A DNA stretch of 64,000 nt from Gammaproteobacteria bacterium (GTDB lineage Bacteria; Pseudomonadota; Gammaproteobacteria; Natronospirales; REEB76), in assembly GCA_049698775.1 (NCBI GenBank), contig JBAVYM010000009.1:5020-69019 (forward strand). The letters are read 5' to 3'. Positions 17,244 through 30,800 of the stretch are shown here, in pieces. A model generated the notes under the pieces. That model did not search any database. It had not been told where the DNA came from and was given only the letters and a program-made list of their open reading frames with translations. Made by a program: the position numbers and the translations under genes. Each line of letters starts with the position of its first letter. Position 1 is the stretch's first letter.

Positions 17244-18581
17244 ATGCCAAACCAGCGCAGTCTCGGTCTTGCCACCACCACCTCCATTGTACTCGGCAAC
17301 ATGGTGGGCTCGGGGGTGTTCCTGCTGCCCGCTTCGCTCGCGCTGTACGGCGTGTACAGCTTGTGGGGCTGGGGGTTCAGCACTGTCGGCGCGCTGTTGC
17401 TGGCTTGGGTGTTCAGCAGCCTGTCGCGCCGCCTGCCGAAGGCCGGCGGTCCTTATGCTTACACACGCGAAGCGTTCGGCGATTTCGCGGGCTTTACCAT
17501 CGCCTGGATTTACTGGATCAGCATCCTCGCCGCCAACGCCGCCATTGCGGTCGCGTTTGCCAGCTACCTGACCGCGTATTTCCCGGCGTTGTCCGCTGAG
17601 CCGATATACGGCGGCCTGGCGGCCATCGTCGCGCTGTGGGTACTCACCGGACTCAACATCTGGGGTGTGCGTGCGGCAGGGAAAATGCAGCTTATCACCG
17701 TGATCCTCAAACTCGCGCCGCTCTTGGCGCTGGCGATATTCGGTTTCTTTCACTTTGATCCAAAGCTGCTGGAATCCGGCCACCTCAGCGGCTCACCGGT
17801 TTCCGCCATCAACACGGCGGCCGCCTTCACCATGTTCGCGTTCCTGGGACTCGAGTGCGCCACCATCCCCGCCGCGCACGTGAAGAATCCGGAAAAAACC
17901 ATCCCGCGCGCCACGATATTGGGCACGGTGATTGCCGCGGTGTTTTATATCGTGTGCACTACCGTGGTCATGGGCCTGATCCCGAGCGCCACGCTCGCGC
18001 ATTCCACCGCGCCGTTTGCCGACGCCGCCAAACTGATATGGGGAAACTGGGGAGGCTACGTTATCGCCGCAGCCGCACTGATTTCCTGTTTCGGTGCGCT
18101 CAACGGCTGGATCCTGATGCAGGGACAATTCCCCCAAGCGGTAGCGAATGACGGTTTATTTCCACGATTCTTCGCGCGCGAATCACGCCGTGGCACACCA
18201 GCAGTGGGTCTGGCGGTCTCGAGCGTACTGGGCACGCTGCTCATCCTCATGAATTACAGCCACGGACTCGTCGGCATGTTCAACATTATCGTGCTGCTGG
18301 ACACGTTTTTCGTACTGGTGCCGTACATGTTCTGCGCCATGGCCGAAATCGTATTGAGCCGCAATCAAAAACACACTATCAAATCGCCGGTGCGCAGGCT
18401 GGTGCTGGCCTGTCTCGCGTTCGCCTTCGCGCTATGGGCCGCCGCCGGCACCGGTGAGGATTCCCTGTACTGGGGTACGCTGTTGCTGCTCGTGGGACTC
18501 CCCATTTACGTCTGGCAAAAACGACATCAGAAACAGTCCGCCCCAGTTCATGTTGAGAATCTAGATACCAATATCGGCTGA
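17244..18581 (+). CDS. APC-superfamily amino acid/polyamine permease (basic amino acid-polyamine antiporter-like)
   Basis: LGLATTTSIVLGNMVGSGVFLLPASLALYG..., ~12 predicted TM segments, 445 aa. Confidence 0.9.
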   Translation: MPNQRSLGLATTTSIVLGNMVGSGVFLLPASLALYGVYSLWGWGFSTVGALLLAWVFSSLSRRLPKAGGPYAYTREAFGDFAGFTIAWIYWISILAANAAIAVAFASYLTAYFPALSAEPIYGGLAAIVALWVLTGLNIWGVRAAGKMQLITVILKLAPLLALAIFGFFHFDPKLLESGHLSGSPVSAINTAAAFTMFAFLGLECATIPAAHVKNPEKTIPRATILGTVIAAVFYIVCTTVVMGLIPSATLAHSTAPFADAAKLIWGNWGGYVIAAAALISCFGALNGWILMQGQFPQAVANDGLFPRFFARESRRGTPAVGLAVSSVLGTLLILMNYSHGLVGMFNIIVLLDTFFVLVPYMFCAMAEIVLSRNQKHTIKSPVRRLVLACLAFAFALWAAAGTGEDSLYWGTLLLLVGLPIYVWQKRHQKQSAPVHVENLDTNIG

Positions 18582-18586
18582 GTCTC

Positions 18587-19228
18587 TCAGACTGCATCCC
18601 AGAAAAAACGGCCAATTGAAAAACTGGCGATCTCAATGCGATCACCCGGCAACAGCGGCCCTACGCCAGCCGGCGTGCCGGTATAGATCAGATCGCCCGG
18701 CAACAGCCGCCAGTAATGGCTTAGAAATGCAACGATCTCCGCCACCGGAAACAGCATGTCACGGGTGTTGCCCTGCTGGCGCAGTACGTCATTCACACGG
18801 CACTGCATATCAATGTTCTGTATATCCAGATTCGCCGGCCACGCAACGAGATTTCCGATCACCGCGCTGCCGTCGAAAGATTTGGACAACTCCCAGGGCT
18901 GGCCCGCCTGTTTCAGCTTAGCTTGCAGTTCCCGCAACGTGAGATCAATTCCGAGTGTCACACCGGCCACATGATCAAGCGCGTCGCCGGCTGAAATTTC
19001 TTTTCCCTCGCGCCCGATGGCCACTACCAGCTCCAGCTCGTGATGTACGCTGCCCTGGTCTTTGGGCAGCTTCAGAGGCTCGCCGACTGCCACCAGACTG
19101 GTTGCAGGTTTCATGAACACCACCGGCTGCGCCGGTTTCGGCGCGCCCATCTCCTTCGCATGCTCGGCATAATTGCGGCCGATACAGAATATACGTGGTG
19201 GAACTACAGGATGGCTCATATCAGTCAT
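18587..19228 (-). CDS. Fumarylacetoacetate hydrolase (FAH) family protein
   Basis: RIFCIGRNYAEHAKEMG...VVFMKPATSLV...HHELELVVAIG...GVTLGIDLTLRELQ...PWELSKSFDGSA...GDLIYTGTPAGVGPL. Confidence 0.9.
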   Translation of the reverse strand: MTDMSHPVVPPRIFCIGRNYAEHAKEMGAPKPAQPVVFMKPATSLVAVGEPLKLPKDQGSVHHELELVVAIGREGKEISAGDALDHVAGVTLGIDLTLRELQAKLKQAGQPWELSKSFDGSAVIGNLVAWPANLDIQNIDMQCRVNDVLRQQGNTRDMLFPVAEIVAFLSHYWRLLPGDLIYTGTPAGVGPLLPGDRIEIASFSIGRFFWDAV

Positions 19229-19276
19229 GTCTGCGTGTTTACCTGATTCAAATCCGGCAATACGCAGGAGTCAATC

Positions 19277-19591
19277 TCACAAACGATCCAGCGGGCTGAG
19301 CACGCCTTTACCACCCTTGTTCATCACGTGCGTATATATCATGGTGGTGCTCACATCCTTGTGTCCCAGCAATTCCTGCACCGTGCGGATATCGTAACCC
19401 GCCTGCAAGAGATGTGTGGCAAAGGAATGCCGCAGGACATGCAGCGTCTGCGGTTTAAATCCGTCACCGATGTACGGCAGCGCCCGATCCAAGATCACGT
19501 ACCTGGAAAAATCCAGGTACGCCTTCTCGGTGAAGGCCTTCAGCGGCTGGCGCTCGGCGCCTGCGACGGCAAGGATGGACGTATTACTCAT
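19277..19591 (-). pseudogene. Chimeric ORF: topoisomerase IV subunit A (ParC) N-terminal ~48 codons fused in frame to the last ~56 codons of an integron integrase (IntI)
   Basis: N-part [36 protein letters not shown], compared with E. coli ParC ERLALHEFTENAYLNYSMYVIMDRALPFIGDGLKP. C-part [52 protein letters not shown] is the IntI/tyrosine-recombinase box II with catalytic Tyr. Junction ~19441-19450. Confidence 0.75.
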
Positions 19592-19755
19592 GGCTTAACC
19601 CGCGGACAATGCCGGAACCGCGCTATCACGCGGCTTGCGGGCGTCATGATACCGGGTGAAAGCGCCAGTTGTAACAGGGCGTATGCAGAGGCAGAGTTTC
19701 TCTAGGTCGTGCACTGACCTCACGATTCAAACCTCCGCCATGCTAAACTCTTTGA

Positions 19756-19944
19756 ATGAAGGTCAGGGAACTTGTGACCTTGATTGAGAAGGACGGCTGG
19801 AAGCAGGTTCGCCAGAAAGGCAGCCACCGGCAATTTCACCACGTTTCCAAACCCGGCACGGTTACAATCTCAGGCAATCCGGGAGTTGATGTTCCACCGG
19901 GAACATTAAACAGCGTTTTGAAACAGGCCGGCCTTAAAAAGTAG
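19756..19944 (+). CDS. hicA: HicA-family mRNA interferase toxin
   Basis: MKVRELVTLIEKDGWKQVRQKGSHRQFHHVSKPGTVTISGNPGVDVPPGTLNSVLKQAGL. Confidence 0.85.
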   Translation: MKVRELVTLIEKDGWKQVRQKGSHRQFHHVSKPGTVTISGNPGVDVPPGTLNSVLKQAGLKK

Positions 19945-19953
19945 GTGATTCCT

Positions 19954-20172
19954 ATGCGATACATGGTTGTGGTTGAAGAAGGACCATCCAGCTTCGGTGC
20001 CTATGTACCGGATCTTCCGGGCTGCGTGGCCGTCGGAAAATCGCAACAGGAAGTCCTGAAACTTATCCAAGAAGCGATTGAGTTCCACCTGGAAGGAATC
20101 ATGGAGAAAGGGAAATCCATGCCTACACCGCATTCATCCAGCATCTTCGTTGAGATTCATCCAACACAGTAA
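19954..20172 (+). CDS. hicB: HicB-family antitoxin
   Basis: MRYMVVVEEGPSSFGAYVPDLPGCVAVGKSQQEVLKLIQEAIEFHLEGIMEKG. ATG 19954 is preceded by aggtga, and the ORF track starts at GTG 19945. Confidence 0.8.
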   Translation: MRYMVVVEEGPSSFGAYVPDLPGCVAVGKSQQEVLKLIQEAIEFHLEGIMEKGKSMPTPHSSSIFVEIHPTQ

Positions 20173-20315
20173 AATGTAGTGTCTGTTGATTGTTCCCGCG
20201 CATACCAGTGCACGGGAACCAAATTACGATTCTTTGCGCCCACGGTATGCATGGAGTTCATTCAAGAGCAGTCCGGTAACAGTTCGTCCGCAGAAATCTG
20301 GCGCGAACTCGCCTT

Positions 20316-20552
20316 TCATTTCATGGCGGAGTGCGGAACAGCTTTGCGCTCTGCTGCCGGGTGAGTCAGAAACCGTTCCACCTCGGCAGCACCCAGTTCG
20401 CGTGGATACCGCTTGCCGTGGAACAGAATAAATCGCCTGGCCCAATCCACATAAGCATCTTCCGTCCGGATGCTGTAATGCCTGAGCCGGATTGCTTCTC
20501 GAATCTGGTCGAGCAGCTTGAGTGGCTTGGAGACAGTGGTTGGAGAATCCAT
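20316..20552 (-). pseudogene. intI: Integron integrase N-terminal fragment (~65 IntI-like codons, then divergence and stop)
   Basis: LLDQIREAIRLRHYSIRTEDAYVDWARRFILFHGKRYPRELGAAEVERFLTH is the conserved IntI N-terminus. Divergently oriented to the cassette array. Confidence 0.85.
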
Positions 20553-20629
20553 ACGGAAGATTTTAGGCCGCCCTAAAATTCAAATCAAACGGTAAATTGG
20601 CACGAGATGTAGAGCCCGACCTGCTTTTG

Positions 20630-20659
20630 TTGACATTAGACGACAAAGCTCACTAAAAT
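20630..20659 (+). promoter_or_regulatory. Candidate cassette promoter (Pc-like), sigma-70 type
   Basis: TTGACA (20630-20635), 18-nt spacer, TAAAAT (20654-20659), reading toward attI and the cassettes. Confidence 0.55.
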
Positions 20660-20676
20660 CTCTCGGTCTAATTCAA

Positions 20677-20683
20677 GTTAGGC
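20677..20683 (+). other. attI core recombination site (GTTAGGC)
   Basis: GTTRRRY match gttaggc between intI and the first cassette ORF. A nearby inverted repeat ttttagg-ccgc-cctaaaa (20564-20581) contains a TTAGGC-like half site. Confidence 0.5.
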
Positions 20684-20742
20684 CGCAAAAAGTATCTGCT
20701 GTCACATGACCACACCTCCGCGTCCCGCAAATAGGCATATCT

Positions 20743-21156
20743 ATGAGTAAAGCTATTGAGAATCTGAAGTCGGCCCAGCAGCGAGCGATGGCTGGTCGTC
20801 CCAAGGTCGGCGGGTTTCCCTACCTTGCGGAAACGCTTCGCAAAGCGGGTGTAACGCGCAACATCTGGTCGCTGCCCGCCTGCCAAAGCTTGTATTTGAC
20901 CGAGCAAGGCCCGGTCGTGACGCAAGGAAGTCCTCTTATCACCGGCATGGAGGACGTACCGTCATTCAATCAAGATGCTCTCATCACAGCACTGCGGACT
21001 GACCAGGCTGGCGAAAGCACTTTCCCAGAGTTCTTGGTGGCCACTTGGAAGGCGGGCGTCGTAAGCTACGACGTGGATTTCAGCAAAAGGACCGTCACCT
21101 ACTACGGGTCGGGCGGAGAAAGTTATGTCGAGTCGTATCCTGCTGCAAAGTTGTAG
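20743..21156 (+). CDS. Cassette 1: DUF1398-family protein
   Basis: FPYLAETLRKAGV...FPEFLVATWKAGVVSYDVDFSKRTVTYYGSGGESYVESYP. Confidence 0.7.
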   Translation: MSKAIENLKSAQQRAMAGRPKVGGFPYLAETLRKAGVTRNIWSLPACQSLYLTEQGPVVTQGSPLITGMEDVPSFNQDALITALRTDQAGESTFPEFLVATWKAGVVSYDVDFSKRTVTYYGSGGESYVESYPAAKL

Positions 21157-21184
21157 GCGCATTGCGATGATCAAGACGGTTGCG

Positions 21185-21196
21185 GCCTAACAATTC
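21185..21196 (+). repeat. attC of cassette 1, left part (R'' gcctaac + aattc), interrupted by the IS
   Basis: gcctaacaattc aligns with ggctaacaactc (attC4) and gcataacagttc (attC2). It continues at 22722. Confidence 0.65.
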
Positions 21197-21538
21197 TGTA
21201 AGAGACTTCCTGTCAACAGTGCGTGCTTGACTCTCTCGTCTTAAGCTTTCAGGCGTTTGCTCGTCATCATCGCGTTGTGCGCCTTGACGGGAGGCGGCAT
21301 TGCCAGTGCGATGCGATGTTCAACGGTGCCAGACTGCATTTCTGTAAACGGTCTTGTTGAGCCGATTCTGTCGGCTCGGACCAAGGTATAAACCGCGCCC
21401 GGAGACCTCGTTCGTCCAGCGGTGTCGCCCGTGACCGGGGATCAACCGGAACACGTGGATGACGACCGGATAGTTAGTCAGGTTCTCTCTGGGTGGGTCT
21501 GACCCGTGACTACCGCTTCGCGCTGACGTAGAACCCAT
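21197..21538 (-). ncRNA. Putative bridge RNA / seekRNA encoded in the IS 3' non-coding arm
   Basis: No credible ORF. Position (downstream of the recombinase) matches IS1111-group guide RNAs. Compared with the paralogous copy at 25243-25497, hairpin 21359-21377 (GAGCC...GGCTC) versus 25402-25420 (GCACC...GGTGC) shows two compensatory pair changes. Internal ttctgtaa (21339-21346) equals core + IS terminus (21194-21201). Exact RNA ends and strand are not determinable from sequence. Confidence 0.5.
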
Positions 21539-22636
21539 TCATATCATGGCAGCGACCGTGCGAGCCTGTTTGCCGGCCGGGCGCTGCACCATGGGGTGCT
21601 TCAGCCAGGCGTCGGCGTCGTAGGCCTCGTCGTGCGCGAGCATCGCCCACAGTTGCCGCGCATGCTTGTTGGCGATAGCCACCAGCACTTTGCCAAATGG
21701 CATCCGGCAGGCCAACTGGCGGATCCAGATCTGCTCGGGCGTGGACTTCTCGGCGCTCACTGCTTGGGCACGCTGCAGGCTGCTGCGTGCGCCCTGGATC
21801 AGCAGCGTGCGCAGGTACGCATCGCCCCGGCAGCTGATGGTGCCAAGGCGCGTGTGCCCGCCACTCGAGTGCTGCGTCGGCACCAAACCGAGCCAGGCCG
21901 CGAGCTGCCGTCCGTTGCGAAAATCCTTGGCTGAGCCGAGAGTCGCGACTGCGGCGTCGGCCGTGAGCGGCCCGATCCCTGTGATGGCGCGCAGCCGCAC
22001 GCAGCGTTCATCGGCCTTGGCGTGCGCTTCAATGCGTGCATCGCAGGCACCGATACGCTCCCGCACCTCGGCCCAGTGCGCACCGAGCTCATTCAGGAGT
22101 TCGTGCGTTTCCGCAGGCAGCGCCGCGAGCTGCTCCGGATTCGCCAGCACACGACGTAGCGCCACCTCGCTCTTCGCCACCACGATCCCGAATTCGGCGA
22201 GCAGTCCGCGCAGGCGGTTGCCGATTGCGAGGCTCTCCACTTTGTAGCCCTCGCGCACCCGGTGCCACGACAGCCGCGCTTGTTGCTCGACGCTCTTCAC
22301 CGGCACAAACCGCATGTTGCCCTGCCGGGCGGCCGTGGCAATCGCCTCGGCATCGCTGCGGTCGTTCTTGGCTGTGCTGTTCTTGCGAAAGGGCTTCACG
22401 AACTGCGCCGCCATCAGCCGCGGCTGCAGGCCATAGTCCAGGCAGCGCCGTGCCCAGTGATGCGCCCCACTGCAGGCCTCCATCGCCACCACCGTACCGC
22501 CCGGTACCTGGGCGAGCCACACGCTAAACGCCTCACGCCCCAAATCCCGCCAGCCCAGTACGCGGCCTGCCGCGTCCACCTCGCACACCGAAAACACGCT
22601 CTTTGCCAAATCCACACCGATGGTTATAGTGTTCAT
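21539..22636 (-). CDS. IS110/IS1111-family DEDD transposase (recombinase), 365 aa
   Basis: MNTITIGVDLAKSVFSV...VVAMEACSGAHHW...KNDRSDAEAIATAA (DEDD RuvC-like), C-terminal Transposase_20 region ITGIGPLTADAAVA...GLVPTQHSSGGHTRLGTISCRGDAYLR. ATG 22636 is preceded by gaggaag. Confidence 0.9.
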   Translation of the reverse strand: MNTITIGVDLAKSVFSVCEVDAAGRVLGWRDLGREAFSVWLAQVPGGTVVAMEACSGAHHWARRCLDYGLQPRLMAAQFVKPFRKNSTAKNDRSDAEAIATAARQGNMRFVPVKSVEQQARLSWHRVREGYKVESLAIGNRLRGLLAEFGIVVAKSEVALRRVLANPEQLAALPAETHELLNELGAHWAEVRERIGACDARIEAHAKADERCVRLRAITGIGPLTADAAVATLGSAKDFRNGRQLAAWLGLVPTQHSSGGHTRLGTISCRGDAYLRTLLIQGARSSLQRAQAVSAEKSTPEQIWIRQLACRMPFGKVLVAIANKHARQLWAMLAHDEAYDADAWLKHPMVQRPAGKQARTVAAMI

Positions 22637-22721
22637 GGAGACTTCCTCTTCTGCTGACGGTTGTATACACACACCATCATGGCCCTCGAGGCCGTAGGGA
22701 GCAGGAAGTCTCTTTTTACTC

Positions 22722-22767
22722 AATCAAGCGGACGCGGTTCCCGCGCCGCTTATTTCAAGCGTTATGC
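22722..22767 (+). repeat. attC of cassette 1, right part (L''-L'-R' gttatgc)
   Basis: aatcaagcgg-a-cgcgg ttc ccgcgccgctt atttcaagc gttatgc, the same architecture as the other attCs. Confidence 0.7.
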
Positions 22768-22785
22768 CCCTCAAGGAGAGTTTCG

Positions 22786-23133
22786 ATGATCCCGCTGCAA
22801 GAGGTTGATGTTCACACCGACAAAAAGGTGTTCTATAAGCTGCATCTTGTCGCACCAACTGGCGCGGCCCCTTTCTCTTCCGAGGTTCTCGTTTACGACT
22901 CCGAGTTCAATCCTGCTTTTGCATCCACCGTGTCGTTTCATCAACATTTCCCAGACGCTGCTGCTGCTTTCGCCCACGCTATCAGTTGGGTCAAAGGTTA
23001 TAGCCATGCCCATGGTTACACCATCAACCGCATCGACAATCCGTGCAATTGCGAGTTTCTTTCGCAAGCCGACCAACAGCAAACCATTAACGCGGCAGGG
23101 TTCACGTTACAGGTGCAGGTAAACGGGGCATAA
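22786..23133 (+). CDS. Cassette 2: hypothetical protein (115 aa), no family recognised
   Basis: Strong RBS aaggagag 6 nt upstream. The ORF fills the cassette and ends inside attC2. Confidence 0.6.
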   Translation: MIPLQEVDVHTDKKVFYKLHLVAPTGAAPFSSEVLVYDSEFNPAFASTVSFHQHFPDAAAAFAHAISWVKGYSHAHGYTINRIDNPCNCEFLSQADQQQTINAAGFTLQVQVNGA

Positions 23134-23183
23134 CAGTTCATTCAAGCGGACGGCTACGCCGCCGCTTAATTCAGGCGTTAGGC
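23128..23183 (+). repeat. attC of cassette 2
   Basis: gcataac agttcattc aagcgg-a-cggc tac gccgccgctt aattcaggc gttaggc (R'' 23128-23134, R' 23177-23183). Confidence 0.8.
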
Positions 23184-23217
23184 CGCGCAAGCCACCGCCT
23201 CAGCAGGGTCGCCCTAT

Positions 23218-23646
23218 ATGAACACCCGGAAGCAGATCGAAGAACATATTGCCACTCAGCCCGAACCAAAACGCGGCGATATGCAAGAACTGCACCGCGT
23301 CATTCTGGCACAAATGCCAAAGTGCAAGTTGTGGTTCCTAGATGGCAAAGACGAACAGGGCAAGGTTGTCTCCAACCCAAACATAGGATACGGACTGCAG
23401 ATCATCAAATATGCCGACGGAAGAACCAAGGACTTCTATCAAATTGGCATGAGCGCAAACACGACAGGAATCTCCATCTACATCCTTGGCATCGAAGACA
23501 AGAAGTATTTGGCCCAAGCGTATGGAAAGGAGCTCGGCAAGGCGAGTGTCACCGGCTATTGCATCAAGTTCAAAAAGCTCAAGGATATAGACACTGACGT
23601 ACTCGTCGCCGCAATACGGTATGGAGTTGAGCAAACAAGCATCTAA
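23218..23646 (+). CDS. Cassette 3: DUF1801 (YdhG-like) domain protein
   Basis: MNTRKQIEEHIATQPEPKRGDMQELHRVILAQMPKCKLWF...GISIYILG...ASVTGYCIKFKKLKDIDTDVLVAAIRYG. Confidence 0.7.
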   Translation: MNTRKQIEEHIATQPEPKRGDMQELHRVILAQMPKCKLWFLDGKDEQGKVVSNPNIGYGLQIIKYADGRTKDFYQIGMSANTTGISIYILGIEDKKYLAQAYGKELGKASVTGYCIKFKKLKDIDTDVLVAAIRYGVEQTSI

Positions 23647-23670
23647 CAACTCGGTCGAGGCACGAGCGCG

Positions 23671-23727
23671 GCCTAACCCCTCGTTCAAGGCGGACGGCTG
23701 CGCCGCCGCTTAACTCCAGCGTTAGCC
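23671..23727 (+). repeat. attC of cassette 3
   Basis: gcctaac ccctcgttc aaggcgg-a-cggc tgc gccgccgctt aactccagc gttagcc. Confidence 0.75.
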
Positions 23728-23750
23728 TCCTTCCAATCATTGGGACACAA

Positions 23751-24659
23751 ATGAAACGCCTTCTTCTCGTTGCATTGCTCGCAATCTCGTTCACGGCCAG
23801 CGCCGTCGTTATTCGTAGCGATGTCAAGGATGCCAAGTATCGAGTTCCGGCTTCGGCATTTCCCGCGCTGGTCGACATGCCTGGTGAGGGACATGGCGTC
23901 CTAATTGCACCTCAGTGGGTCGTAACCGCAGCTCACGCGGCGCCAATGCAAGGCATGGAAGAAGACGTAACTATCGGCGGTGTGGCGCGCAAGGTCAAAC
24001 GTGTCATCACTTATCCGGGCTACAAGAGACTGCCTGACCAGCTGGTCAAGCAGGCCTTGGCATCCGGCGATTTCTCCAAGGCGCATGCATTTCTTGCGTC
24101 GTCCAACGATATCGCGCTGATCGAACTTGTGTCTCCAGTAACGGATGTAGCTCCCGTTCCCCTCTATCGCGGGAACAAAGAGGTGGGGATGACCGTAGAG
24201 CTTGTGGGCAAGGGCGCCACGGGCAATGGCACCGAAGGCCAGGATCCTCACAGCTCGCATCGCACCGTCTTGCGCCGTGCCTTCAACGTGATTGTCGGTG
24301 CCGACGCCCGCTATGTTTGGTATCGTTTTGACCCGCCTCCATCTGCTTTGCCGCTTGAAGGCGCGACGGGAAGCGGCGACAGCGGCGGCCCCTTGCTCAT
24401 CGGAAATGGGAGTTCAAGGCAACTCGTCGGCCTGGCCTCTTGGAGCAAATATCCACCGGGCCATCCATTTTTGAGCAAATATGCACCGGGTCGCCCATTC
24501 GTGGAAGGCCTCTACGGCGAAATCGTGTACGCCGTTCGCATCTCAAGCTACATCCAATGGATAGAAGGCGTGATATCTGTGCCCGCGAGTGCCCGTACTC
24601 GGCTTCAGCCAGCGGAGGCTAACAACTCAATCCAGCGGACGCGCTATGCGCGCCGCTGA
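23751..24659 (+). CDS. Cassette 4: secreted trypsin-like (S1 family) serine protease
   Basis: Signal peptide MKRLLLVALLAISFTASA. Catalytic triad contexts WVVTAAHA (His), NDIALIEL (Asp), GDSGGPLL (Ser). The last ~14 codons are encoded by attC4. Confidence 0.85.
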   Translation: MKRLLLVALLAISFTASAVVIRSDVKDAKYRVPASAFPALVDMPGEGHGVLIAPQWVVTAAHAAPMQGMEEDVTIGGVARKVKRVITYPGYKRLPDQLVKQALASGDFSKAHAFLASSNDIALIELVSPVTDVAPVPLYRGNKEVGMTVELVGKGATGNGTEGQDPHSSHRTVLRRAFNVIVGADARYVWYRFDPPPSALPLEGATGSGDSGGPLLIGNGSSRQLVGLASWSKYPPGHPFLSKYAPGRPFVEGLYGEIVYAVRISSYIQWIEGVISVPASARTRLQPAEANNSIQRTRYARR

Positions 24660-24672
24660 TTTCCAGTTAGCG
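24617..24672 (+). repeat. attC of cassette 4
   Basis: ggctaac aactcaatc cagcgg-a-cgcgc tat gcgcgccgctg atttcca gttagcg. Confidence 0.75.
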
Positions 24673-24690
24673 CCCACAGTAACGTTTCGG

Positions 24691-24719
24691 TTGATACGTA
24701 ACTACATTGTAGTTATAAT
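24691..24719 (+). promoter_or_regulatory. Cassette-internal sigma-70 promoter with palindromic operator for the brnTA cassette
   Basis: TTGATA (24691-24696), 17 nt, TATAAT (24714-24719). The spacer contains a 7-bp-arm palindrome aactaca-t-tgtagtt (24700-24714). Confidence 0.6.
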
Positions 24720-24725
24720 CTGTGC

Positions 24726-25004
24726 ATGACCGAGCTGCGCTTCGAGTGGGATCCGGCCAAGGCCGCCGCAAACATCAAGAAGCATGGCATCGGCTTCGAT
24801 GAAGCCAAGTCCGTGTTTGCTGACGAGCGGGCCAAGCTCATCGCTGATCCGCAGCATTCGGATAACGAGGACCGGTTCGTCCTGCTCGGGCTAAGCACAA
24901 GGCTCAGATTGCTTGTCGTTTGCCACTGTTATCGCAGCAAGAGCAACACGATCCGAATCATTTCGGCCAGAAAGGCTACGGCCACTGAGTCTCGGCAATA
25001 CTGA
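24726..25004 (+). CDS. brnT: Cassette 5: BrnT (DUF497) toxin
   Basis: MTELRFEWDPAKAAANIKKHGIGFDEAKSVFADE...RFVLLGLS...LLVVCHCYR...IRIISARKAT. Confidence 0.85.
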   Translation: MTELRFEWDPAKAAANIKKHGIGFDEAKSVFADERAKLIADPQHSDNEDRFVLLGLSTRLRLLVVCHCYRSKSNTIRIISARKATATESRQY

Positions 25005-25015
25005 TAGGTGCTCCC

Positions 25016-25225
25016 ATGCGCAAAGAATACGATTTCTCCAAAGCCAAGAAGAACCCCTACGCTCCTCAGCTCAAGAAGCAAATCACTATTCGCTTGGACG
25101 GTGATGCGATTGATTACTTCAAGTCAGTTTCGGAGGAGGTCGGGATCCCATACCAGAGCCTGATCAACCTTTACTTGCGAGATTGCGCTGCCACTCACAA
25201 GCAGCTCGACTTGTCGTGGAAGTAA
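25016..25225 (+). CDS. brnA: Cassette 5: BrnA-like (CopG/RHH) antitoxin
   Basis: MRKEYDFSKAKKNPYAPQLKKQITIRLDGDAIDYFKSVSEEVGIPYQSLINLYLRDCA. Confidence 0.8.
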   Translation: MRKEYDFSKAKKNPYAPQLKKQITIRLDGDAIDYFKSVSEEVGIPYQSLINLYLRDCAATHKQLDLSWK

Positions 25226-25242
25226 GCGGGCGCTGACAGTTC

Positions 25243-25497
25243 CGTAAGAGACTTCCTGTCAATACCGCGCGCCTCATGTTCTGGCCTTGAGCTTTCAGGC
25301 ATTTGCTGTTCAGCGTGGTGTTCTCGTGGCCGAATGCGGCTTCGTCAGTTCGATGCGGTGTTGCAACGTTGCCAGACTGCATTTCCGTAAGCGGTCTTGT
25401 TGCACCGATGGTGCGGGTGCGGACCAGAGTATAAACCGCGTCCGGAGACCTCATTCATCCAGCGGTTTCGTCGGTGTTTCGGAGATCGGCCACCCGG
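25243..25497 (-). mobile_element. Orphan, diverged copy of the IS1111-attC 3' non-coding (guide-RNA) arm, with no transposase; it interrupts the decayed attC of cassette 5
   Basis: Block-wise homology to 21197-~21450: cgtaagagacttcctgtcaa, ttgagctttcaggcatttgct, ttgccagactgcatttccgtaagcggtcttgtt..., ggaccagagtataaaccgcgtccggagacctc. Preceded by the attC start cgctgacagttc. It ends against the 3' end of ltaE. Confidence 0.7.
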
Positions 25498-25514
25498 AAA
25501 GAAGGGCGGCGCAT

Positions 25515-26528
25515 TCAGCCGGCGTGGAAATACGCACGGAATGCCGCAATGACCCGCTCCACATCTGCCGCGCTGACATCCAGGTGCGTAACCAAGCGCA
25601 AATTAGCATTGGGCAGGATCAGAATACTGGCGTTCTTCAAGTGTGCGGTCAGTGGCTGCACATGCTCCGCTGCTATGCTCGCAAAAACCATGTTGGTCTG
25701 CACGGCGGCCGGATCAATTTTTATCTGCTTTATCTGTGCCAGACCTTCAGCAAGTTTCCGGGCATTGGCGTGATCTTCCGCCAAACGTTCAACGTGGTGT
25801 TCCAGCGCGTATAAGCCCGCCGCGGCCAGGACGCCCGCCTGACGCATACCGCCGCCGAGAATCTTACGCGCGCGGTGCGCTTTGCGGATCAGCTCGCGCT
25901 TGCCCACCAGCACCGTGCCGACCGGACAGCCAAGCCCTTTTGAAAGACAGATGGAAACGCTGTCAAAATGGCGGGTGATGTCCTTTACCGGCACGCCGAG
26001 TTTCACCGCCGCGTTGAACACCCGCGCGCCGTCCAGATGGATGCCAAGTCCATGCTGGCGTGCAAAGTCCGCGGCATCTTTGAGATAGGCCAGCGGCAAC
26101 ACGCGGCCGTTCTGGGTGTTTTCCAGCACCAGCAGGCGCGTGCGGGCGAAATGCGCATCATCGGGTTTGATGGCAGCCTTGATTTTTTTCAGGTCCAGCG
26201 TGCCATCGGCTTCATATTCAACGGGGCACGGCCACAAACTTCCCAGTACCGCCGCGCCACCGGCTTCGTATTTGTAGCTGTGGCCGAGTGAGCCGATGAT
26301 GAATTCCTCACCACGTTCACAGTGCGCCATAAGCGCTGCGAGATTGGATTGCGTACCGCTCGGGAAGAACAGACCGGCCTCGTGGCCGGTCAGCTCCGCG
26401 AGTTTTTCCTGCAGGCGATTGACCGTCGGATCGTCGCCGAACACGTCATCGCCTACCTCGGCCGCGGCCATGGCGGCGCGCATCGCCGCCGTCGGCCGCG
26501 TCACCGTATCACTGCGCAAGTCAACCAT
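25515..26528 (-). CDS. ltaE: Low-specificity L-threonine aldolase
   Basis: MVDLRSDTVTRPTAAMRAAMAAAEVGDDVFGDDPTVNRLQEKLAELTGHEAGLFFPSGTQSNL...LENTQNGRV...HLDGARVFNAAV...DSVSICLSKGLG. Confidence 0.9.
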   Translation of the reverse strand: MVDLRSDTVTRPTAAMRAAMAAAEVGDDVFGDDPTVNRLQEKLAELTGHEAGLFFPSGTQSNLAALMAHCERGEEFIIGSLGHSYKYEAGGAAVLGSLWPCPVEYEADGTLDLKKIKAAIKPDDAHFARTRLLVLENTQNGRVLPLAYLKDAADFARQHGLGIHLDGARVFNAAVKLGVPVKDITRHFDSVSICLSKGLGCPVGTVLVGKRELIRKAHRARKILGGGMRQAGVLAAAGLYALEHHVERLAEDHANARKLAEGLAQIKQIKIDPAAVQTNMVFASIAAEHVQPLTAHLKNASILILPNANLRLVTHLDVSAADVERVIAAFRAYFHAG

Positions 26529-26557
26529 ATTGGCCGTGCTGAAAGCACACTTCGTTC

Positions 26558-26583
26558 TCTCTCCCCCTAAAAGGGGGGAGAGA
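26558..26583 (-). terminator. Stable hairpin downstream of the skp-like gene (possible terminator/REP-type hairpin)
   Basis: tctctccccc-taaaag-gggggagaga, 10-bp perfect stem. No clear T-run on the minus strand, hence low confidence as a terminator. Confidence 0.4.
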
Positions 26584-26600
26584 CAAAAGTGAAGGGGTGA

Positions 26601-27173
26601 TTAACCTCCGCCACTCTTCGCGGCAGGCGCCTTGCTCTGCTGCTGTTTCTGCGCCTGCGCCCAATCTTTGTCCAGGGCATCGGTCAGGCCTTGAGTCACA
26701 TCGTATTTGCCCGAGGCATACACCGCACCAGCGGCATCCTTGCTGAGCAGGATGTCGTAACGGTGGGTCTTGGCATATTGGTCCAGCACCTTGCCCAGTT
26801 CCTGTTCGATGGGTTGCAATAATTCCTGACGGCGCTGCTCCAGATCCTGGCGGCTCATCAGCACGTATTGCTGCAGGTTATTGCGGCTGTCATCGTAGCT
26901 CTTCTGCAATTGCTGGTAATTCGCGGCTTTTGAATCGGTCTTGTCCAGTTGCTGCTTCAATACGTTCAGCTTGTTATTCTGATCGTTGGCCTGGTCCTGG
27001 AATTTCTTGACGATGGTCTGCAATTGCTGGTTGGCTTGCTGGCCCGCCTGGGATTTGGCGAGCACTTCCTGAAGATTGACGACGCCGATGCGCGGCGCTT
27101 CCGCGGCTTGCGCCGAAGTCATTGAAAACGCAGCGACCGCCAGTACGCCGGCGGCAAGAAATCCGTAACGCAT
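26601..27173 (-). CDS. OmpH/Skp-family periplasmic chaperone
   Basis: Internal ATG 27173 gives MRYGFLAAGVLAVAAFSMTSAQAAEAPRIGVVNLQEVLAKSQAGQQANQQLQ..., coiled-coil Q/K/D-rich body. Confidence 0.8.
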   Translation of the reverse strand: MRYGFLAAGVLAVAAFSMTSAQAAEAPRIGVVNLQEVLAKSQAGQQANQQLQTIVKKFQDQANDQNNKLNVLKQQLDKTDSKAANYQQLQKSYDDSRNNLQQYVLMSRQDLEQRRQELLQPIEQELGKVLDQYAKTHRYDILLSKDAAGAVYASGKYDVTQGLTDALDKDWAQAQKQQQSKAPAAKSGGG

Positions 27174-27292
27174 GATGGAATACTCCTGAAATGTGGGAAT
27201 AGACAAAGCCCGCCGGGTGGCGGGGCAGGTGGAAAGCACGTCTAGGATAACGCACCCAGGGCGGTGCGGACTACCGCACCGCCCCGCGATGC

Positions 27293-27694
27293 TCAGGCTT
27301 TTTTCAGGTTCACAAACAGATTGATGGTAAAAAACAGGATGCCGATAACCGCCAACACTGCGCCCACCGCCACCACCGGTATGGCTCCCACATGGCCGCT
27401 ATTCACGAAAAACAGGCCGATGACAAATATCGGCAGACCGATATTGTGCAACCAGAAATGGGCCAACCCCAGCCAGTGGCCGCCGGCTCGGGGGCATAGC
27501 CAGTAAATGACACCCGCAAGACCCAGCGAAGCCCAGCCCAACAGGTTGATGTGGGCGTGCACCGGGGCGTACTGGAATTGATGGCTCAGGCCCATGACCA
27601 GACCGAAAATCACCCCGATCAGCAGATACAGCACGGCGATTTTCAGCCAGATTGGCGCCATGCGAGCGCCGCGCTGTTCGATAAGACTGTCCAT
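27293..27694 (-). CDS. Small His-rich 4-TM membrane protein (133 aa), function unknown
   Basis: ATG 27694 is preceded by a perfect aaggag. MDSLIEQRGARMAPIWLKIAVLYLLIGVIFGLVMG...PVHAHINLLGWASLGLAGVIYWL...HFWLHNIGLPIFVIGLFF. Confidence 0.6.
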   Translation of the reverse strand: MDSLIEQRGARMAPIWLKIAVLYLLIGVIFGLVMGLSHQFQYAPVHAHINLLGWASLGLAGVIYWLCPRAGGHWLGLAHFWLHNIGLPIFVIGLFFVNSGHVGAIPVVAVGAVLAVIGILFFTINLFVNLKKA

Positions 27695-27847
27695 AACTAA
27701 CTCCTTGTCTTGATTTGCAATTTCGTTTACGGGCGCCGCCGTCTGACGGCGCCCGGCGCAGCATATCAGAGCGGCGGTTGAACCCACAGCCTGCTCTGGT
27801 GTCATACTTGCCACCCTTTTCGCTTTCATAACAAAAGGAATATACCC

Positions 27848-30800
27848 ATGTTCCGGAACTGCTTTTCCCTTCGGGCCGTATGGCTGCCCGCTTTGATCCT
27901 CCTAGGTTTGGCGGCAGGCACCGCCCAAGCCAGCAATACCCTCATGCGCTATCCCACTCTGCACGGTGATTCCGTGGTGTTTGAGGCGCATAGCAATCTG
28001 TGGGAAGTGAACCGTGCCGGCGGTACCGCCCGCCGGCTCACCACCGACCCCGGTTTCGATATCATGCCGCGCTTCTCGCCAGACGGGCAGTGGATCGCCT
28101 TCACCGGCCAGTACCGCGGCAACACCGACGTGTATGTGATTCCCGCGGGCGGCGGCAACGCCAAGCGCCTCACCTTCCATTCCGACGTGGTGGCAAACGC
28201 GCCGCTGCGCTGGGGACCGGACAACATGGTGGTCACCTGGACGCCGGACAGCAAAAACATCGTGTTCCTGTCACGCCGCACCACCTTCAATTCCTGGTTC
28301 GGCCAGTTATTCACGGTGCCGCTAGACGGCGGACTGCCCACACAACTGCCGCTGCCCAAAGGCGGCATGCTGACCTATTCGCCAGACGGACAATCCATCG
28401 CTTATAACCGCATCTTCCGCAACTTCCGCACCTGGAAGCGCTACAAGGGTGGTTTGGCGCAGGACGTGTGGCTGTACAACTTCGCCACCAAGAAAAGCAC
28501 GCGTGTCACCGATTATCCCGGCGCCGACATGGACCCCATGTGGTACGGGCATGTGATTTATTTCATTTCCGACCGCGGCCCGGAGGAACGCAAAAATCTT
28601 TGGGTCTATGATCTGAACACCAAACAGTTCCGCCAGGTCACGCACTTCAAGGATTTCGACATTGACTGGCCGAGCCTCGGCGACACCGGTATCGCGTTCC
28701 AGGATGGCGGCGATCTCTACGTCATGGACCTGCCGTCCGAACAACTGCACAAGCTCGACGTGAGCGTACCGGACGACGGTAGCCGCACCGGTCTGCGCTG
28801 GGTGGACGCCTCCAAATACATCCAGGTGATGGATACCGCAGGCGACACCAATCTGGCGCTTTCGCCCAATGGCAAGCGCGCGCTGTTGCAGGCACGCGGC
28901 GACATCTGGTCGCTGCCGAAAGAGCACGGTCCAAGCCGTGACTTGACCGACACCAGCAACTCCGAGGAGGAATATCCTGCCTGGTCGCCGGACGGCAAAT
29001 GGATCACCTACGCCACCGACATTAGTGGCGAAGACCAGATCGCGGTGCGTCCGGCCGATAATTCCGGCCCGCAACAAACTCTGACCAATTTCAAAACCGG
29101 CTATTTCTACGGTCCCAGTTGGTCGCCCGCAAGCGACATGCTCGCGTTCTCGGACAACGAGCATCGCCTGTGGTATCTCAACGTGAAGAGCCGCAAGCTC
29201 ACGCAGGTGGCGCAGGACAAGTACAGCGAGATGCACGACTACAGTTGGTCGCCGGACGGACGCTGGCTCGCTTACAGCGTCACCGCGCCGAACCAGATGC
29301 GCCAGATTTATCTCTACAATCTGGCGGACGACCAAGCGACGCTCATTAGCTCGCCCATGGACAACGATCAGGGTCCGGTGTTCGATCCGGATGGCAAGTA
29401 CCTGTATTTCGTATCCGCACGTCACGAGAACCCGACCTTCAGCCAAAGCGAGTTCAACATCGCGACCTTGCAGATGGACGGCGTGTATGTCACCACGCTG
29501 ACCAAGGATGAGGCTTCGCCGTTCGCGCCGCGCAATGACGAAGGCACGCTTTCGGAACAGAAAGAGCAGAAGCCCGGCGAATGGAAACCGGGCAACAGCA
29601 AGCCCATCAAGATTGATCTCGATGGCCTGATGGCGCGCGCCGTACCGCTGCCGATTCCGGCAGCCAATATCTCGGGGCTTACCGCGACGCCGGGCCACGT
29701 GTTCTACAGCACCACACCCAACCAAACCATCGCCGGACCGCTGACCGGCATGCAGCCGGAATTGCATGTCTATGATCTCGCTAAGCGTGAGGACAAGACG
29801 CTGGTGACGGGCCTGGCCGGCTGGACGCTTTCAGCCGACGGCTCCACGATTCTCTACAACAACCCCGACGGCAAACTGTTCACGCAGGACGCCATGCCGG
29901 ATGCGAAACCCAAGCCGCTCGACACCTCGCACATGTGGGTGCAGATCAATCCGGTCGCGGAATGGAACGAGATGTATCACATGGCCTGGCGGCTGGACCG
30001 GGATTTCTTCGTCAACCGCAAGATGAACGGTGTGGACTGGGATGCGGTGCAGGCCAAGTACTCGAAGCTCCTGCCGCTCATGGGTTCGCGTGAGGATTTG
30101 AATTATTTCATCGGCCAGACCATCGGCGAACTCAGCAACTCCCACACCTATGTGGGTGGCGGCGACATGGATTACGCCGTGCACCGCACGCCGACGGGCT
30201 TGCTGGGCGTGGATTTCGGCCTGGATGAAAATTCCGGCCGCTATTACTTCAAAACGATTTACCCCGGCGACAACACTCGCGAAAACTACCGCTCGCCCTT
30301 GACTGAGCCGGGCGTAAATGTGAAAACCGGCGATTATCTGCTGGCGGTGAATGGCCGCGAGTTGAAAGCACCCGTGAATCCCTACAGCCTATTCGTGGAC
30401 ACCGCCAACGATGACGTGGAACTCACCATCGCGGACAATGCCGCCGGCAAGAACACGCGCCGGGTGCTGATCAAGACCATCCCCAATGAACTGGACATCC
30501 GCCTCAAGGCCTGGATAGATCATAATCGCGAAGAGGTAAACAAGCTCTCAGGCGGCCAGATCGGTTACATCTATATGTCCGATATGGAAGCCCAGGGCAT
30601 GGACCAGTTCATCCGCCAGTTCTACCCGCAGCTCACCAAGCAGGGCCTGATCATAGATGACCGCTACAACGGCGGCGGTTTCATTGACCAGATCGTGCTG
30701 GAGCGACTGCGGCGGGTATTGATCGGCATGAACAGCGACCGTCAGCAGATCGCCTCGCCGATCCCGCAGCAGGTGAGCAACAGTTACAAGGTGACGCTCA

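What the first reader, a model, noticed from the sequence alone, without database searches (positions are those of the whole stretch)
21195..22721. IS1111-attC-type IS inside an integron attC, with candidate bridge/seekRNA arm and a promoter that would assemble only on circularisation
Removing 21197-22721 restores a normal attC (gcctaacaattc|aatcaagcggacgcgg..gttatgc), co-linear with the neighbouring attCs, so the element targeted the attC itself. This is the documented habit of the IS1111-attC subgroup of the IS110 family. TC is present at both junctions (candidate core dinucleotide). The 13-bp inverted repeats are sub-terminal, an IS1111 trait. The DEDD recombinase (22636-21539) is followed by 342 nt of non-coding sequence, where IS1111-group guide RNAs are encoded. 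In the recombinase-sense strand the element ends ...TTGACAggaagtctcttaca and begins gagTAAAAAgag. Joining the ends through one GA/TC core gives TTGACA-17 nt-TAAAAA about 77 nt upstream of the ATG. That is a junction promoter of the kind described for IS110-family circular intermediates. A weaker hint: gcttga in the first variable block (21225-21230) is the reverse complement of the right target flank tcaagc. That is only 6 nt and could be chance.
Basis: partly seen in the sequence, partly recalled or inferred. Interest (0 to 1): 0.7.

Follow-up and report, generated by a model that had tools for sequence, protein, structure and literature searches.

The report
RNA-guided insertion sequence in integron attC
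An intact 1.5-kb jumping gene of the IS1111 type sits inside the recombination site of the first gene cassette of a chromosomal integron, and it carries a guide RNA whose loops match that site and the element's own end; this kind of element is known, but this copy and its lineage are new.

Summary
Window 21197-22721 is a 1525-bp IS1111-type insertion sequence. It has 13-bp sub-terminal inverted repeats, 7-bp left and 3-bp right extensions, a 365-aa DEDD transposase and a 342-nt 3' non-coding region. It splits an attC that is restored exactly when the element is removed.

The transposase is 71% identical to ISPa55. It is only 36% identical to ISKpn4 and 42% to ISPa25, the attC-targeting IS with reported seekRNAs. 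About 50 relatives (66-83% identity, mostly Lysobacterales) sit at the same attC position, TTGAAY|GAnnTGTTAG.

The non-coding region encodes a 206-nt structured RNA (21325-21530, minus strand), well supported by covariation. One internal loop matches both target strands. A multiloop strand matches the right IS end plus the GA core, and six end variants are each compensated. A model of this RNA also finds the ISKpn4 and ISPa21 non-coding regions.

Joining the ends gives TTGACA-17-TAAAAA. A conserved leader hairpin covers the ribosome-binding site unless transcription starts at that junction.

A truncated second copy ends the cassette array. Verdict: a new member of a known kind. Expression and mobility are untested.

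The parts
21197..22721 (-). Complete IS1111-type insertion sequence, 1525 bp
   Evidence: Bounded by the two halves of one attC. About 50 relatives have the same ends and the same flanks.
21185..21196 (+). Left part of the interrupted attC: R'' GCCTAAC plus AATTC
   Evidence: The restored site folds as an attC hairpin.
22722..22767 (+). Right part of the interrupted attC (L''...L'...R' GTTATGC)
22715..22721 (-). 7-bp left-end extension GAGTAAA. Its first two bases, GA, are the candidate core dinucleotide.
   Evidence: GA starts the IS in 51/52 copies.
22702..22714 (-). Left sub-terminal inverted repeat AAGAGACTTCCTG
   Evidence: 13 nt, 100% complementary to 21200-21212.
22713..22718 (-). Candidate -10 hexamer TAAAAA of the junction promoter
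   Evidence: Sequence. TAAAAA is present in most relatives, and L079 has TATAAA. Function is inferred.
22638..22712 (-). Leader hairpin: 22703-22712 pairs with 22638-22647 and covers the Shine-Dalgarno GAGGAAG
   Evidence: I18. Covaries across the family. Fold -33.5 kcal/mol, z -3.8; the stem is lost if the RNA starts at IS position 17.
21539..22636 (-). DEDD transposase gene, 365 aa
   Evidence: Pfam PF01548 + PF02371 and NCBIfam NF033542. 71% identical to ISPa55, 65% ISPa34, 42% ISPa25, 36% ISKpn4.
21325..21530 (-). Structured guide-RNA domain (seekRNA / bridge-RNA type), 206 nt, 9 helices
   Evidence: RNAalifold. 98.1% of cells paired, 17 pairs with compensatory changes, 0/500 shuffles reach this. 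Covariance model R1 scores it 215 bits.
21469..21479 (-). 5' side of the target-binding loop, GACUAACUAUC; complementary to the right target GA..TGTTAG on the transposase-sense strand
   Evidence: family 225/340 matches against 211.5 in permutations; 4/5000 permutations reach this.
21409..21419 (-). 3' side of the target-binding loop, CUGGACGAACG; reads like left target + GA core, so it would pair with the opposite strand
   Evidence: family 234/306 against 211.9 +/- 4.7; 0/5000. This copy matches its own site at only 5 of 9 positions.
21338..21349 (-). Multiloop strand GUUUACAGAAAU; UUACA+GA equals the last 5 nt of the right end plus the core (donor guide)
   Evidence: 7-nt match in 39/41 elements, six end variants each compensated. 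The ACA/ACAGA variant is seen only in this copy and its 89% relative.
21383..21392 (-). Candidate second donor guide UUUAUACCUU (6/7 complementary to left-end GTAAAAA)
   Evidence: Sequence only. It is nearly invariant, so there is no covariation. Inconclusive.
21238..21254 (-). Small conserved hairpin GCCYGAAAGCYYRGGC near the right end
   Evidence: 96.7% paired, one pair switching C-G/U-A 19:15. Role unknown.
21211..21216 (-). Candidate -35 hexamer TTGACA of the junction promoter
   Evidence: Sequence. TTGA is conserved in 41/42 relatives. Function is inferred.
21200..21212 (-). Right sub-terminal inverted repeat
21197..21199 (-). 3-bp right-end extension ACA (ACG in most relatives)
25243..25491 (-). 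Truncated second copy ('footprint'): right end plus about 250 bp of non-coding region of a related IS, at the end of the cassette array
   Evidence: R1 scores it 90 bits.

Best explanation
This is an intact RNA-guided insertion sequence of the IS1111 group of the IS110 family. It belongs to an ISPa55-like lineage and has inserted without target duplication into the R''-L'' end of the attC of the first cassette of a chromosomal integron.

Shown here:
- The IS1111 anatomy.
- The attC target, at the same position and in the same orientation in about 50 relatives.
- A covariation-supported 206-nt RNA fold directly downstream of the transposase gene.
- A multiloop strand that tracks the right IS end plus a GA core.

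Inferred, by analogy with ISEc11, ISKpn4 and IS621:
- The transposase bound to this RNA excises the element as a circle.
- Joining the ends creates TTGACA-17-TAAAAA, which drives the transposase gene and the co-transcribed guide RNA.
- The ribonucleoprotein then pairs the target loop with an attC (TTGAAY|GA|AnTGTTAG) and the donor strand with the circle junction (..TTACA|GA|GTAAAAA). It exchanges strands at the shared GA.
- In the integrated state, transcripts that enter from outside contain the whole left repeat. That repeat folds onto the ribosome-binding site and should keep translation low.
For: - Family assignment: Pfam and NCBIfam hits.
- Anatomy: 13-bp repeats with 7/3-bp extensions. 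The attC is restored on removal.
- Relatives: 52 copies with the same ends; 45/47 have GTTAN in the first 12 nt of the right flank.
- RNA fold: 42 pairs, 98.1% of cells paired, 17 pairs with double changes, slid controls 30-47%.
- Guide-to-DNA covariation: 0/5000, 4/5000 and 0/5000 permutations reach the observed match for the 3' loop side, the 5' loop side and the donor strand.
- Natural retargeting: L064 and L042 loops follow their unusual flanks.
- Link to tested RNAs: model R1 finds the non-coding regions of ISKpn4 and ISPa21, whose RNAs were shown to co-purify with their transposases (PMC11187229). ISPa21 and ISKpn4 also show right-end/multiloop compensation, ATA/AUA against ATG/AUG.
- Junction model: both observed junctions equal left target+GA+left end and right end+GA+right target.
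- Leader hairpin: covaries and depends on the start site.
Against: - No expression, circle or transposition data exist for this element.
- The fold of this sequence alone is no better than shuffles (z -0.57).
- This copy's 3' loop side (UGGAC|GAA) matches its own site (TGATT|GAA) at 5 of 9 positions; the family is typically 6-8.
- The -10 TAAAAA lacks the conserved final T, and the scanning rule used would not call it.
- For ISEc11 a short 82-nt RNA sufficed for transposition (PMC11187229), so the donor-matching multiloop strand may be dispensable.
- Only one copy of this exact transposase is on record, in a MAG.
Confidence: 0.85

Rival explanations
1. It is a member of the classical IS1111-attC clade (ISPst6/ISPa21/ISKpn4), simply a diverged copy.
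For: It targets the same attC end in the same orientation as ISKpn4, with the insertion point 1 nt apart. The RNA scaffold is recognisably shared.
Against: The transposase is 36% identical to ISKpn4, whereas members of that clade are 74-90% identical to each other. The repeats differ (AAGAGACTTCC against ATGGACTCTCCCC). The nearest ISfinder entries are ISPa55 and ISPa34.
Confidence: 0.05
2. It is an inactive relic: structurally complete but stranded, because its guide no longer matches the flanks needed for excision.
For: The guide matches its own flank at only 5/9 positions. Flank matching is required for circle formation in ISEc11 (PMC11187229). Only a single copy is on record. The integron itself is decaying: intI is a pseudogene and a footprint lies at the array end.
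Against: The ORF is full length and the residues that are invariant in the three-sequence alignment with ISPa55 and ISPa34 are all present. Both ends and the RNA domain are intact (215 bits). Relatives tolerate 1-3 mismatches.
Confidence: 0.3
3. The conserved 3' region is a structured 3' UTR or transcription terminator, or a DNA-level site, rather than a guide RNA. Its matches to target and end would reflect shared ancestry.
For: There are no RNA data. Part of the fold never varies (P2 and most of P1). Related sequences can inflate shuffle tests.
Against: Slid-partner controls keep relatedness and still collapse to 30-47% paired. Six different right-end variants are each mirrored about 130 nt away. 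Loop changes follow unusual flanks in L064, L042, L043 and L070. Homologous regions of ISKpn4 and ISPst6 give transposase-bound RNAs (PMC11187229).
Confidence: 0.05
4. The element is a gene cassette or a group IIC-attC intron rather than an IS.
For: It sits at an attC, as those elements do (PMC3001079).
Against: It has no reverse transcriptase and no attC of its own. It has a DEDD transposase, sub-terminal repeats and precise attC restoration.
Confidence: 0.01

Closest known systems
ISPa55 and ISPa34 (ISfinder; sequences taken from the source data of PMC11187229)
   Same: Closest named transposases: 71% and 65% identity over the full length.
   Different: Below the identity at which IS are given the same name. 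Their DNA, ends and targets could not be examined here, so it is unknown whether they are recorded as attC-targeting.
ISKpn4 / ISPst6 / ISPa21 (IS1111-attC group; seekRNA shown for ISKpn4 and ISPst6)
   Same: IS1111 anatomy. Insertion into the same end of attC in the same orientation. The non-coding region is downstream of the transposase gene. The RNA scaffold is found by the model built here (31.5 and 27.6 bits for ISKpn4 and ISPa21). The strand order of target matches is the same. The -35 abuts the right repeat and the -10 lies in the 7-bp left extension.
   Different: 36% transposase identity. Different repeat sequence. Insertion point 1 nt away (TTGAA|TGAATTG against TTGAAY|GAATTG). Central hairpin much shorter (about 168 nt against 206 nt). 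Found on plasmids and class 1 integrons, whereas no relative above 60% identity was found on plasmids.
ISPa25
   Same: A diverged IS1111 member reported to use the same attC site with a similar predicted seekRNA (PMC11187229).
   Different: 42% transposase identity to this element. It is a separate lineage.
ISEc11
   Same: IS1111 member with an experimentally shown circle, junction promoter, essential 3' non-coding region and programmable seekRNA.
   Different: Targets a short linear sequence, not attC. Not compared at sequence level here.
IS621 bridge RNA (IS110 group)
   Same: Guide loops that read both strands of target and donor. A 2-nt core shared by donor and target (CT there, GA here). 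DEDD recombinase with a serine-containing Tnp domain. Weak sequence match to chains 8wt6 and 9t56.
   Different: That RNA is encoded upstream in the left end, while here it lies downstream in the right end. The strand order of the guides is reversed. The donor contacts here sit in a multiloop. Long sub-terminal repeats are present here.

Membership tests
IS110 family, IS1111 group | DEDD (RuvC-like) transposase with a C-terminal Transposase_20 domain | tested here: met
   PF01548 E 4.6e-12, PF02371 E 9.5e-24, NF033542 317 bits.
IS110 family, IS1111 group | Sub-terminal inverted repeats of about 11-13 bp | tested here: met
   13 bp, perfect.
IS110 family, IS1111 group | Asymmetric terminal extensions, 7 bp left and 3 bp right | tested here: met
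   22715-22721 and 21197-21199, given the restored attC. The rule is quoted from PMC11187229. A 2-nt GA ambiguity remains.
IS110 family, IS1111 group | Longer non-coding region downstream of the transposase gene | tested here: met
   342 nt downstream against 85 nt upstream.
IS110 family, IS1111 group | No target-site duplication; one fixed target and orientation | tested here: met
   Exact attC restoration. Same flanks in about 50 relatives.
IS110 family, IS1111 group | seekRNA from the non-coding region, with the top-strand match 5' of the bottom-strand match and the two matches overlapping in the target | tested here: met
   Sequence and covariation only. RNA expression could not be tested.
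IS110 family, IS1111 group | Circular intermediate with a junction promoter | not testable with these tools
   TTGACA-17-TAAAAA would form; TTGA conserved in 41/42.
IS1111-attC group (Tetu & Holmes 2008; Post & Hall 2009) | Site- and orientation-specific insertion into attC | tested here: met
   The defining papers are not in the held library, so the criteria come from citing papers.
IS1111-attC group (Tetu & Holmes 2008; Post & Hall 2009) | Transposase close to ISPst6/ISPa21/ISKpn4 | tested here: not met
   36% identity to ISKpn4; members of that clade are 74-90% identical to each other.
IS1111-attC group (Tetu & Holmes 2008; Post & Hall 2009) | Degenerate footprints at cassette-array termini (from my recollection of the abstract) | tested here: met
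   Footprint at 25243-25491 at the end of the array.
Bridge RNA (IS621 type) | Target-binding internal loop with two guides reading opposite strands | tested here: met
   Loop between P4 and P5.
Bridge RNA (IS621 type) | Donor-binding loop with two guides | tested here: inconclusive
   The right-end guide is strongly supported. The left-end guide candidate UUUAUAC is invariant and has one mismatch.
Bridge RNA (IS621 type) | RNA encoded in the left end, upstream of the recombinase gene | tested here: not met
   It is encoded downstream, the IS1111 arrangement.
Rfam families | Match to a curated RNA family | tested here: not met
   No relevant hit at E up to 1 in 18000-30000.

The most novel reading that the evidence does not exclude
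attC targeting may not be a trait of one IS lineage. It may be a property of exchangeable guide loops carried on an RNA scaffold common to IS1111 elements. On this reading at least three transposase lineages (ISKpn4-like, ISPa25-like and this ISPa55-like clade) came to hit the same few nucleotides of attC. In this clade the multiloop strand would be a true donor guide. The leader fold-back would make transposase synthesis depend on the promoter formed in the circle.
Probability: 0.4. Interest if true: 0.5.

Novelty: new member of a known kind. Interest (0 to 1): 0.35.

Why it matters
For integron biology, this element splits the attC of the first cassette. A footprint of a sister element marks the end of the array, next to a decayed integrase gene. 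That fits the infection-and-decay cycle that, as I recall it, was described for Pseudomonas integrons, and it extends the pattern to soil Lysobacterales.

For RNA-guided recombination, the roughly 50 natural guide/target/end triplets recovered here form a ready-made set of natural reprogramming events for an IS1111 scaffold. They include compensated right-end variants and two copies retargeted away from attC. These could guide experiments on which RNA positions read target, donor and core.

None of this changes the known principle.

Tried and rejected
- Rfam scan of 18000-30000: only a chance miRNA hit.
- Megablast of the element against plasmids: nothing. Protein search of plasmids: only relatives below 60% identity.
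- My first regular-expression attC scan was too strict and found nothing. A looser scan found the array.
- Tetu & Holmes 2008 is not in the held library.
- Exact-protein look-ups with three alternative starts found no contig. The homology search then showed one identical MAG protein.
- Single-sequence folding of the RNA domain is uninformative (z -0.57).
- The first register used for the multiloop/right-end comparison was off by one. It was corrected.
It lies outside the fold, most relatives read TCATGC, and it does not follow the flanks.
- A left-end guide could not be supported by covariation.
- The Azospira plasmid relative L083 (51% identity) has attC-like loop sequences but a left flank that does not look like attC. 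This was not resolved.
Full report
**The observation**

Window 21197-22721 (1525 bp) is bounded by perfect 13-bp inverted repeats at 21200-21212 and 22702-22714. These lie 3 bp and 7 bp from the points where the flanking sequence resumes. Deleting the segment joins GCCTAACAATTC to AATCAAGCGGACGCGG...GTTATGC. This 58-nt product aligns column for column with the attCs at 23128-23183, 23671-23727 and 24617-24672. It folds as a typical attC hairpin (-14.9 kcal/mol, z -3.45). TC occurs at 21195-21196 and at 22720-22721, so the boundaries are ambiguous by 2 nt.

The minus-strand ORF 22636-21539 (365 aa) carries the DEDD_Tnp_IS110 and Transposase_20 domains. It scores 317 bits on NCBIfam's 'IS110 family RNA-guided transposase' model, whose cut-off is 140. 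It is followed by 342 nt of non-coding sequence. The 7-bp left and 3-bp right extensions, the sub-terminal repeats and the downstream non-coding region are the features given for IS1111 elements by Siddiquee et al. 2024 (PMC11187229).

**Context**

The element lies in a chromosomal integron.
- The integrase gene is a pseudogene. Its N-terminal SAM-like fragment is at 20316-20552 and its catalytic C-terminal fragment at 19277-19591. A hicA/hicB pair lies between them on the other strand.
- A Pc-like promoter lies at 20630-20659.
- Five cassettes follow on the plus strand: DUF1398, an unknown, DUF1801, a trypsin-like protease, and a BrnT toxin with a second short ORF downstream.
- The IS interrupts the attC of the first cassette and reads against the cassettes.

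The identical transposase is on record once, from an NCBI metagenome-assembled 'Gammaproteobacteria bacterium' on a 79.6-kb contig. The next best protein is 89% identical.

**Which IS it is**

Transposase sequences of ISfinder entries come from the source data of PMC11187229. Against these the protein is 71% identical to ISPa55, 65% to ISPa34, 42% to ISPa25 and 36% to ISKpn4. In that paper's identity matrix the ISPst6/ISKpn4/ISPa21 group is 74-90% identical internally, and ISPa34 and ISPa55 are about 35% identical to it. So the element is outside the founding IS1111-attC clade and outside the ISPa25 lineage.

No plasmid in PLSDB carries a relative above 60% identity. A scan of one genome per species returned 79 loci at 66-83% identity. 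Most are from Rhodanobacter, Dyella, Stenotrophomonas, Lysobacter, Luteimonas, Pseudoxanthomonas and unnamed Lysobacterales.

**The family targets attC**

In 52 complete copies (including the window's own) the ends are GAGTAAA-AAGAGACTTCC ... GGAAGTCTCTT-ACG. The flanks, read in the transposase direction, are ...GTCCGCCTTGAAC | IS | GAATTGTTAGGC.
- 45 of 47 right flanks have GTTAN within the first 12 nt.
- 46 of 50 right flanks start with GA.
- 51 of 52 elements start with GA.

ISKpn4, fetched from a Salmonella plasmid, sits at ...GGCTTGAA | IS | TGAATTGTTAG. This is the same end of attC and the same orientation, one nucleotide away by the 7/3-bp convention.

Both junctions of the present family fit a shared 2-nt core. 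The left junction equals left target + GA + GTAAAAA. The right junction equals ..TTACG + GA + ATTGTTAG.

**The guide RNA**

The non-coding regions of 42 distinct family members align well over the first ~220 nt after the stop codon and again at the right end. RNAalifold on the core (window 21325-21530, minus strand) gives nine helices with 42 pairs.

On that structure 98.1% of cells form standard pairs and 17 pairs show changes on both sides (100 cells). No shuffle out of 500 reaches any of the five measures. Sliding the 3' partners by 1-3 columns drops pairing to 30-47%. Folding of this sequence alone is no better than shuffles (z -0.57), so the support is comparative.

The fold has a closing stem P1, then P2-P3-P4 leading to an internal loop. 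P5 and the P6 hairpin are closed inside that loop. Back in the multiloop lie hairpin P7 and a single strand before the 3' half of P1.

Three RNA segments track the DNA.
- **5' side of the loop.** GACUAACnnnn (window 21469-21479) is the complement of the right target ..nnnnGTTAG. Family matches are 225/340 against 211.5 in permuted pairings; 4 of 5000 permutations reach this.
- **3' side of the loop.** nUGAACGAAnG (21409-21419) reads like the left target plus GA plus A. Family matches are 234/306 against 211.9 +/- 4.7; 0 of 5000 permutations reach this. Individual cases are telling:
  - L043: UGGAAUGAG on TGGAAT|GAG.
  - L070: UGAGCGA on TGAGC|GA.
  - L042: GAUUGA on GGATT|GA.
  - L064: sits in a non-attC site CCGACA|GG and reads CCGACAG.
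- **Multiloop strand.** GUUUACGGAAAU (21338-21349) contains the last five nucleotides of the right end plus GA in 39 of 41 elements. Six end variants are each mirrored in the RNA: TTACG, CTAAG, CTAGG, TTGAG, CTACG and TTACA (0/5000). The TTACA/UUACAGA pair occurs in the window's copy and in its 89% relative only.

The arrangement agrees with two published descriptions. Siddiquee et al. found the top-strand match 5' of the bottom-strand match, with the two matches overlapping in the target. Durrant et al. remarked that IS1111 donor contacts lie in a multiloop (PMC11208160).

A possible left-end guide (UUUAUAC, 6/7 complementary to GTAAAAA) is invariant and cannot be judged.

The nucleotides after the core in the multiloop strand (AAUG) resemble the right target more than the left end (4.1 against 2.1 of 6). 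I cannot decide whether that reflects a handshake-type contact, as in IS621, or chance.

**Relation to known RNAs**

No Rfam family matches. A covariance model built from the family (R1) gives the scores below.

| Sequence | Score |
|---|---|
| Window's copy | 215 bits |
| Truncated copy in the window | 90 bits |
| ISKpn4 non-coding region | 31.5 bits (E 2.5e-7) |
| ISPa21 non-coding region | 27.6 bits (E 2.8e-6) |
| Azospira plasmid relative L083 | 111 bits |
| Paraburkholderia plasmid relative L084 | 66 bits |
| Klebsiella plasmid relative L082 | 26 bits |

The ISKpn4 and ISPa21 hits are full-length, on the correct strand and directly downstream of the transposase gene; the E-values are rough. 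The loops of L084 and L082 are unrelated to attC.

The scaffold is therefore general to IS1111 elements, and the loops carry the specificity. In ISKpn4 and ISPa21 the multiloop strand again follows the right end: AUAUG with ..ATATG, and AUAUA with ..ATATA.

The ISKpn4 match is 168 nt long. This is close to the 145-170-nt 'long seekRNA' reported for these elements. The reported 82-nt form would correspond to the P3-P4-loop part; that correspondence is my inference.

**This copy's guide**

Its 3' loop side reads UGGAC|GAA, while its own site is TGATT|GAA. That is 5 of 9 positions, where relatives typically show 6-8. It would fit attCs of the TTGGAC|GAA type seen in L067 and L068. ISEc11 needs matching flanks to excise, so this copy may excise poorly. 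This is an inference.

**Promoter and leader**

Joining the ends gives TTGACA (21211-21216, minus strand), a 17-nt spacer and TAAAAA (22713-22718). The ATG lies 77 nt further on. TTGA is conserved in 41 of 42 relatives. ISKpn4 has the same layout, TTGTGG-17-TGTAAT. For ISEc11 an active junction promoter is documented. The -10 lacks the final T. No promoter-like site reads into the transposase gene in the integrated state.

Nucleotides 10-19 of the IS (inside the left repeat) pair with the 10 nt just before the ATG, which include the Shine-Dalgarno GAGGAAG (pair I18). This pairing is kept through compensatory changes across the family:
- GAGACTTCCTC/GAGGAAGTCTC
- GAGACTTCTCC/GGAGAAGTCTC
- GACTTCCCCTTCTC/GAGAAGGGGAAGTC

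The pairing is also seen in the 51% relative L083.

The full leader folds at -33.5 kcal/mol (z -3.8). A leader starting at position 17, where a transcript from the junction promoter would begin, loses the stem. I infer a fold-back that blocks translation of read-through transcripts. This was not tested.

**Second copy**

Window 25243-25491 holds the right end (CGT-AAGAGACTTCC on the plus strand) and about 250 bp of non-coding region of a related element. It is cut inside hairpin P6. It abuts the R''-like GCTGACAGTTC of the last cassette and is followed by a beta-eliminating-lyase-family (threonine-aldolase-like) gene. It is a terminal footprint of the kind that, from my recollection of the abstract of Tetu & Holmes 2008, was described for Pseudomonas arrays. 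That paper could not be read here.

**Verdict**

The kind of element and its mechanism are known, so this is a new member of a known kind.

Noticed in passing
window 25243-25491: Truncated second copy of a related IS: the right end plus the 3' part of the non-coding region, cut inside hairpin P6. It abuts the R''-like half of the last cassette's attC and marks the end of the array.
   Followed up: yes
window 19277-20552: The integron integrase is a pseudogene. Its N-terminal SAM-like fragment (20316-20552) and C-terminal catalytic fragment (19277-19591) are separated by a hicA/hicB toxin-antitoxin pair (19756-20172) on the opposite strand.
   Followed up: partly
window 22638-22712: The left inverted repeat pairs with the ribosome-binding site of the transposase gene. 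The pairing covaries across the family and disappears if transcription starts at the predicted junction-promoter start.
   Followed up: partly
window 22603-22630 (+): Promoter-like TTGCCA-16-TATAGT inside the 5' end of the transposase gene. It points out of the left end towards the next cassette and could offset polarity on downstream cassettes. It may be a by-product of the conserved coding sequence.
   Followed up: no
window 20630-20659 (+): Strong promoter-like site TTGACA-18-TAAAAT in the attI region upstream of the first cassette; a likely cassette promoter.
   Followed up: no
window 21238-21254: Small hairpin GCCYGAAAGCYYRGGC between the guide-RNA domain and the right end. It is conserved in the family with one covarying pair, and it is weakened in this copy. 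Role unknown.
   Followed up: partly
L064:120-1638: A family member sits in a non-attC site (CCGACA|GGCTGCTAGG), and the 3' side of its target loop reads CCGACAGAAU. This looks like natural retargeting.
   Followed up: partly
L085-L094: The 89%-identical relative (P0003) appears with one right flank (GACTGTTAGAATG) but several different left flanks in short metagenome contigs, and once with a duplicated right end. These could be rearrangements or assembly chimeras.
   Followed up: no
L083:793-2280: An Azospira IncP plasmid carries a 51% relative with attC-like loop sequences (CUAAC / GAACGA), the same leader hairpin and right-end/multiloop match. Its left flank does not look like attC.
   Followed up: partly
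window 24726-25227: The last cassette encodes a BrnT toxin (PF04365), and a second short ORF lies downstream. Together with hicAB this gives at least two toxin-type modules in or beside the integron.
   Followed up: no
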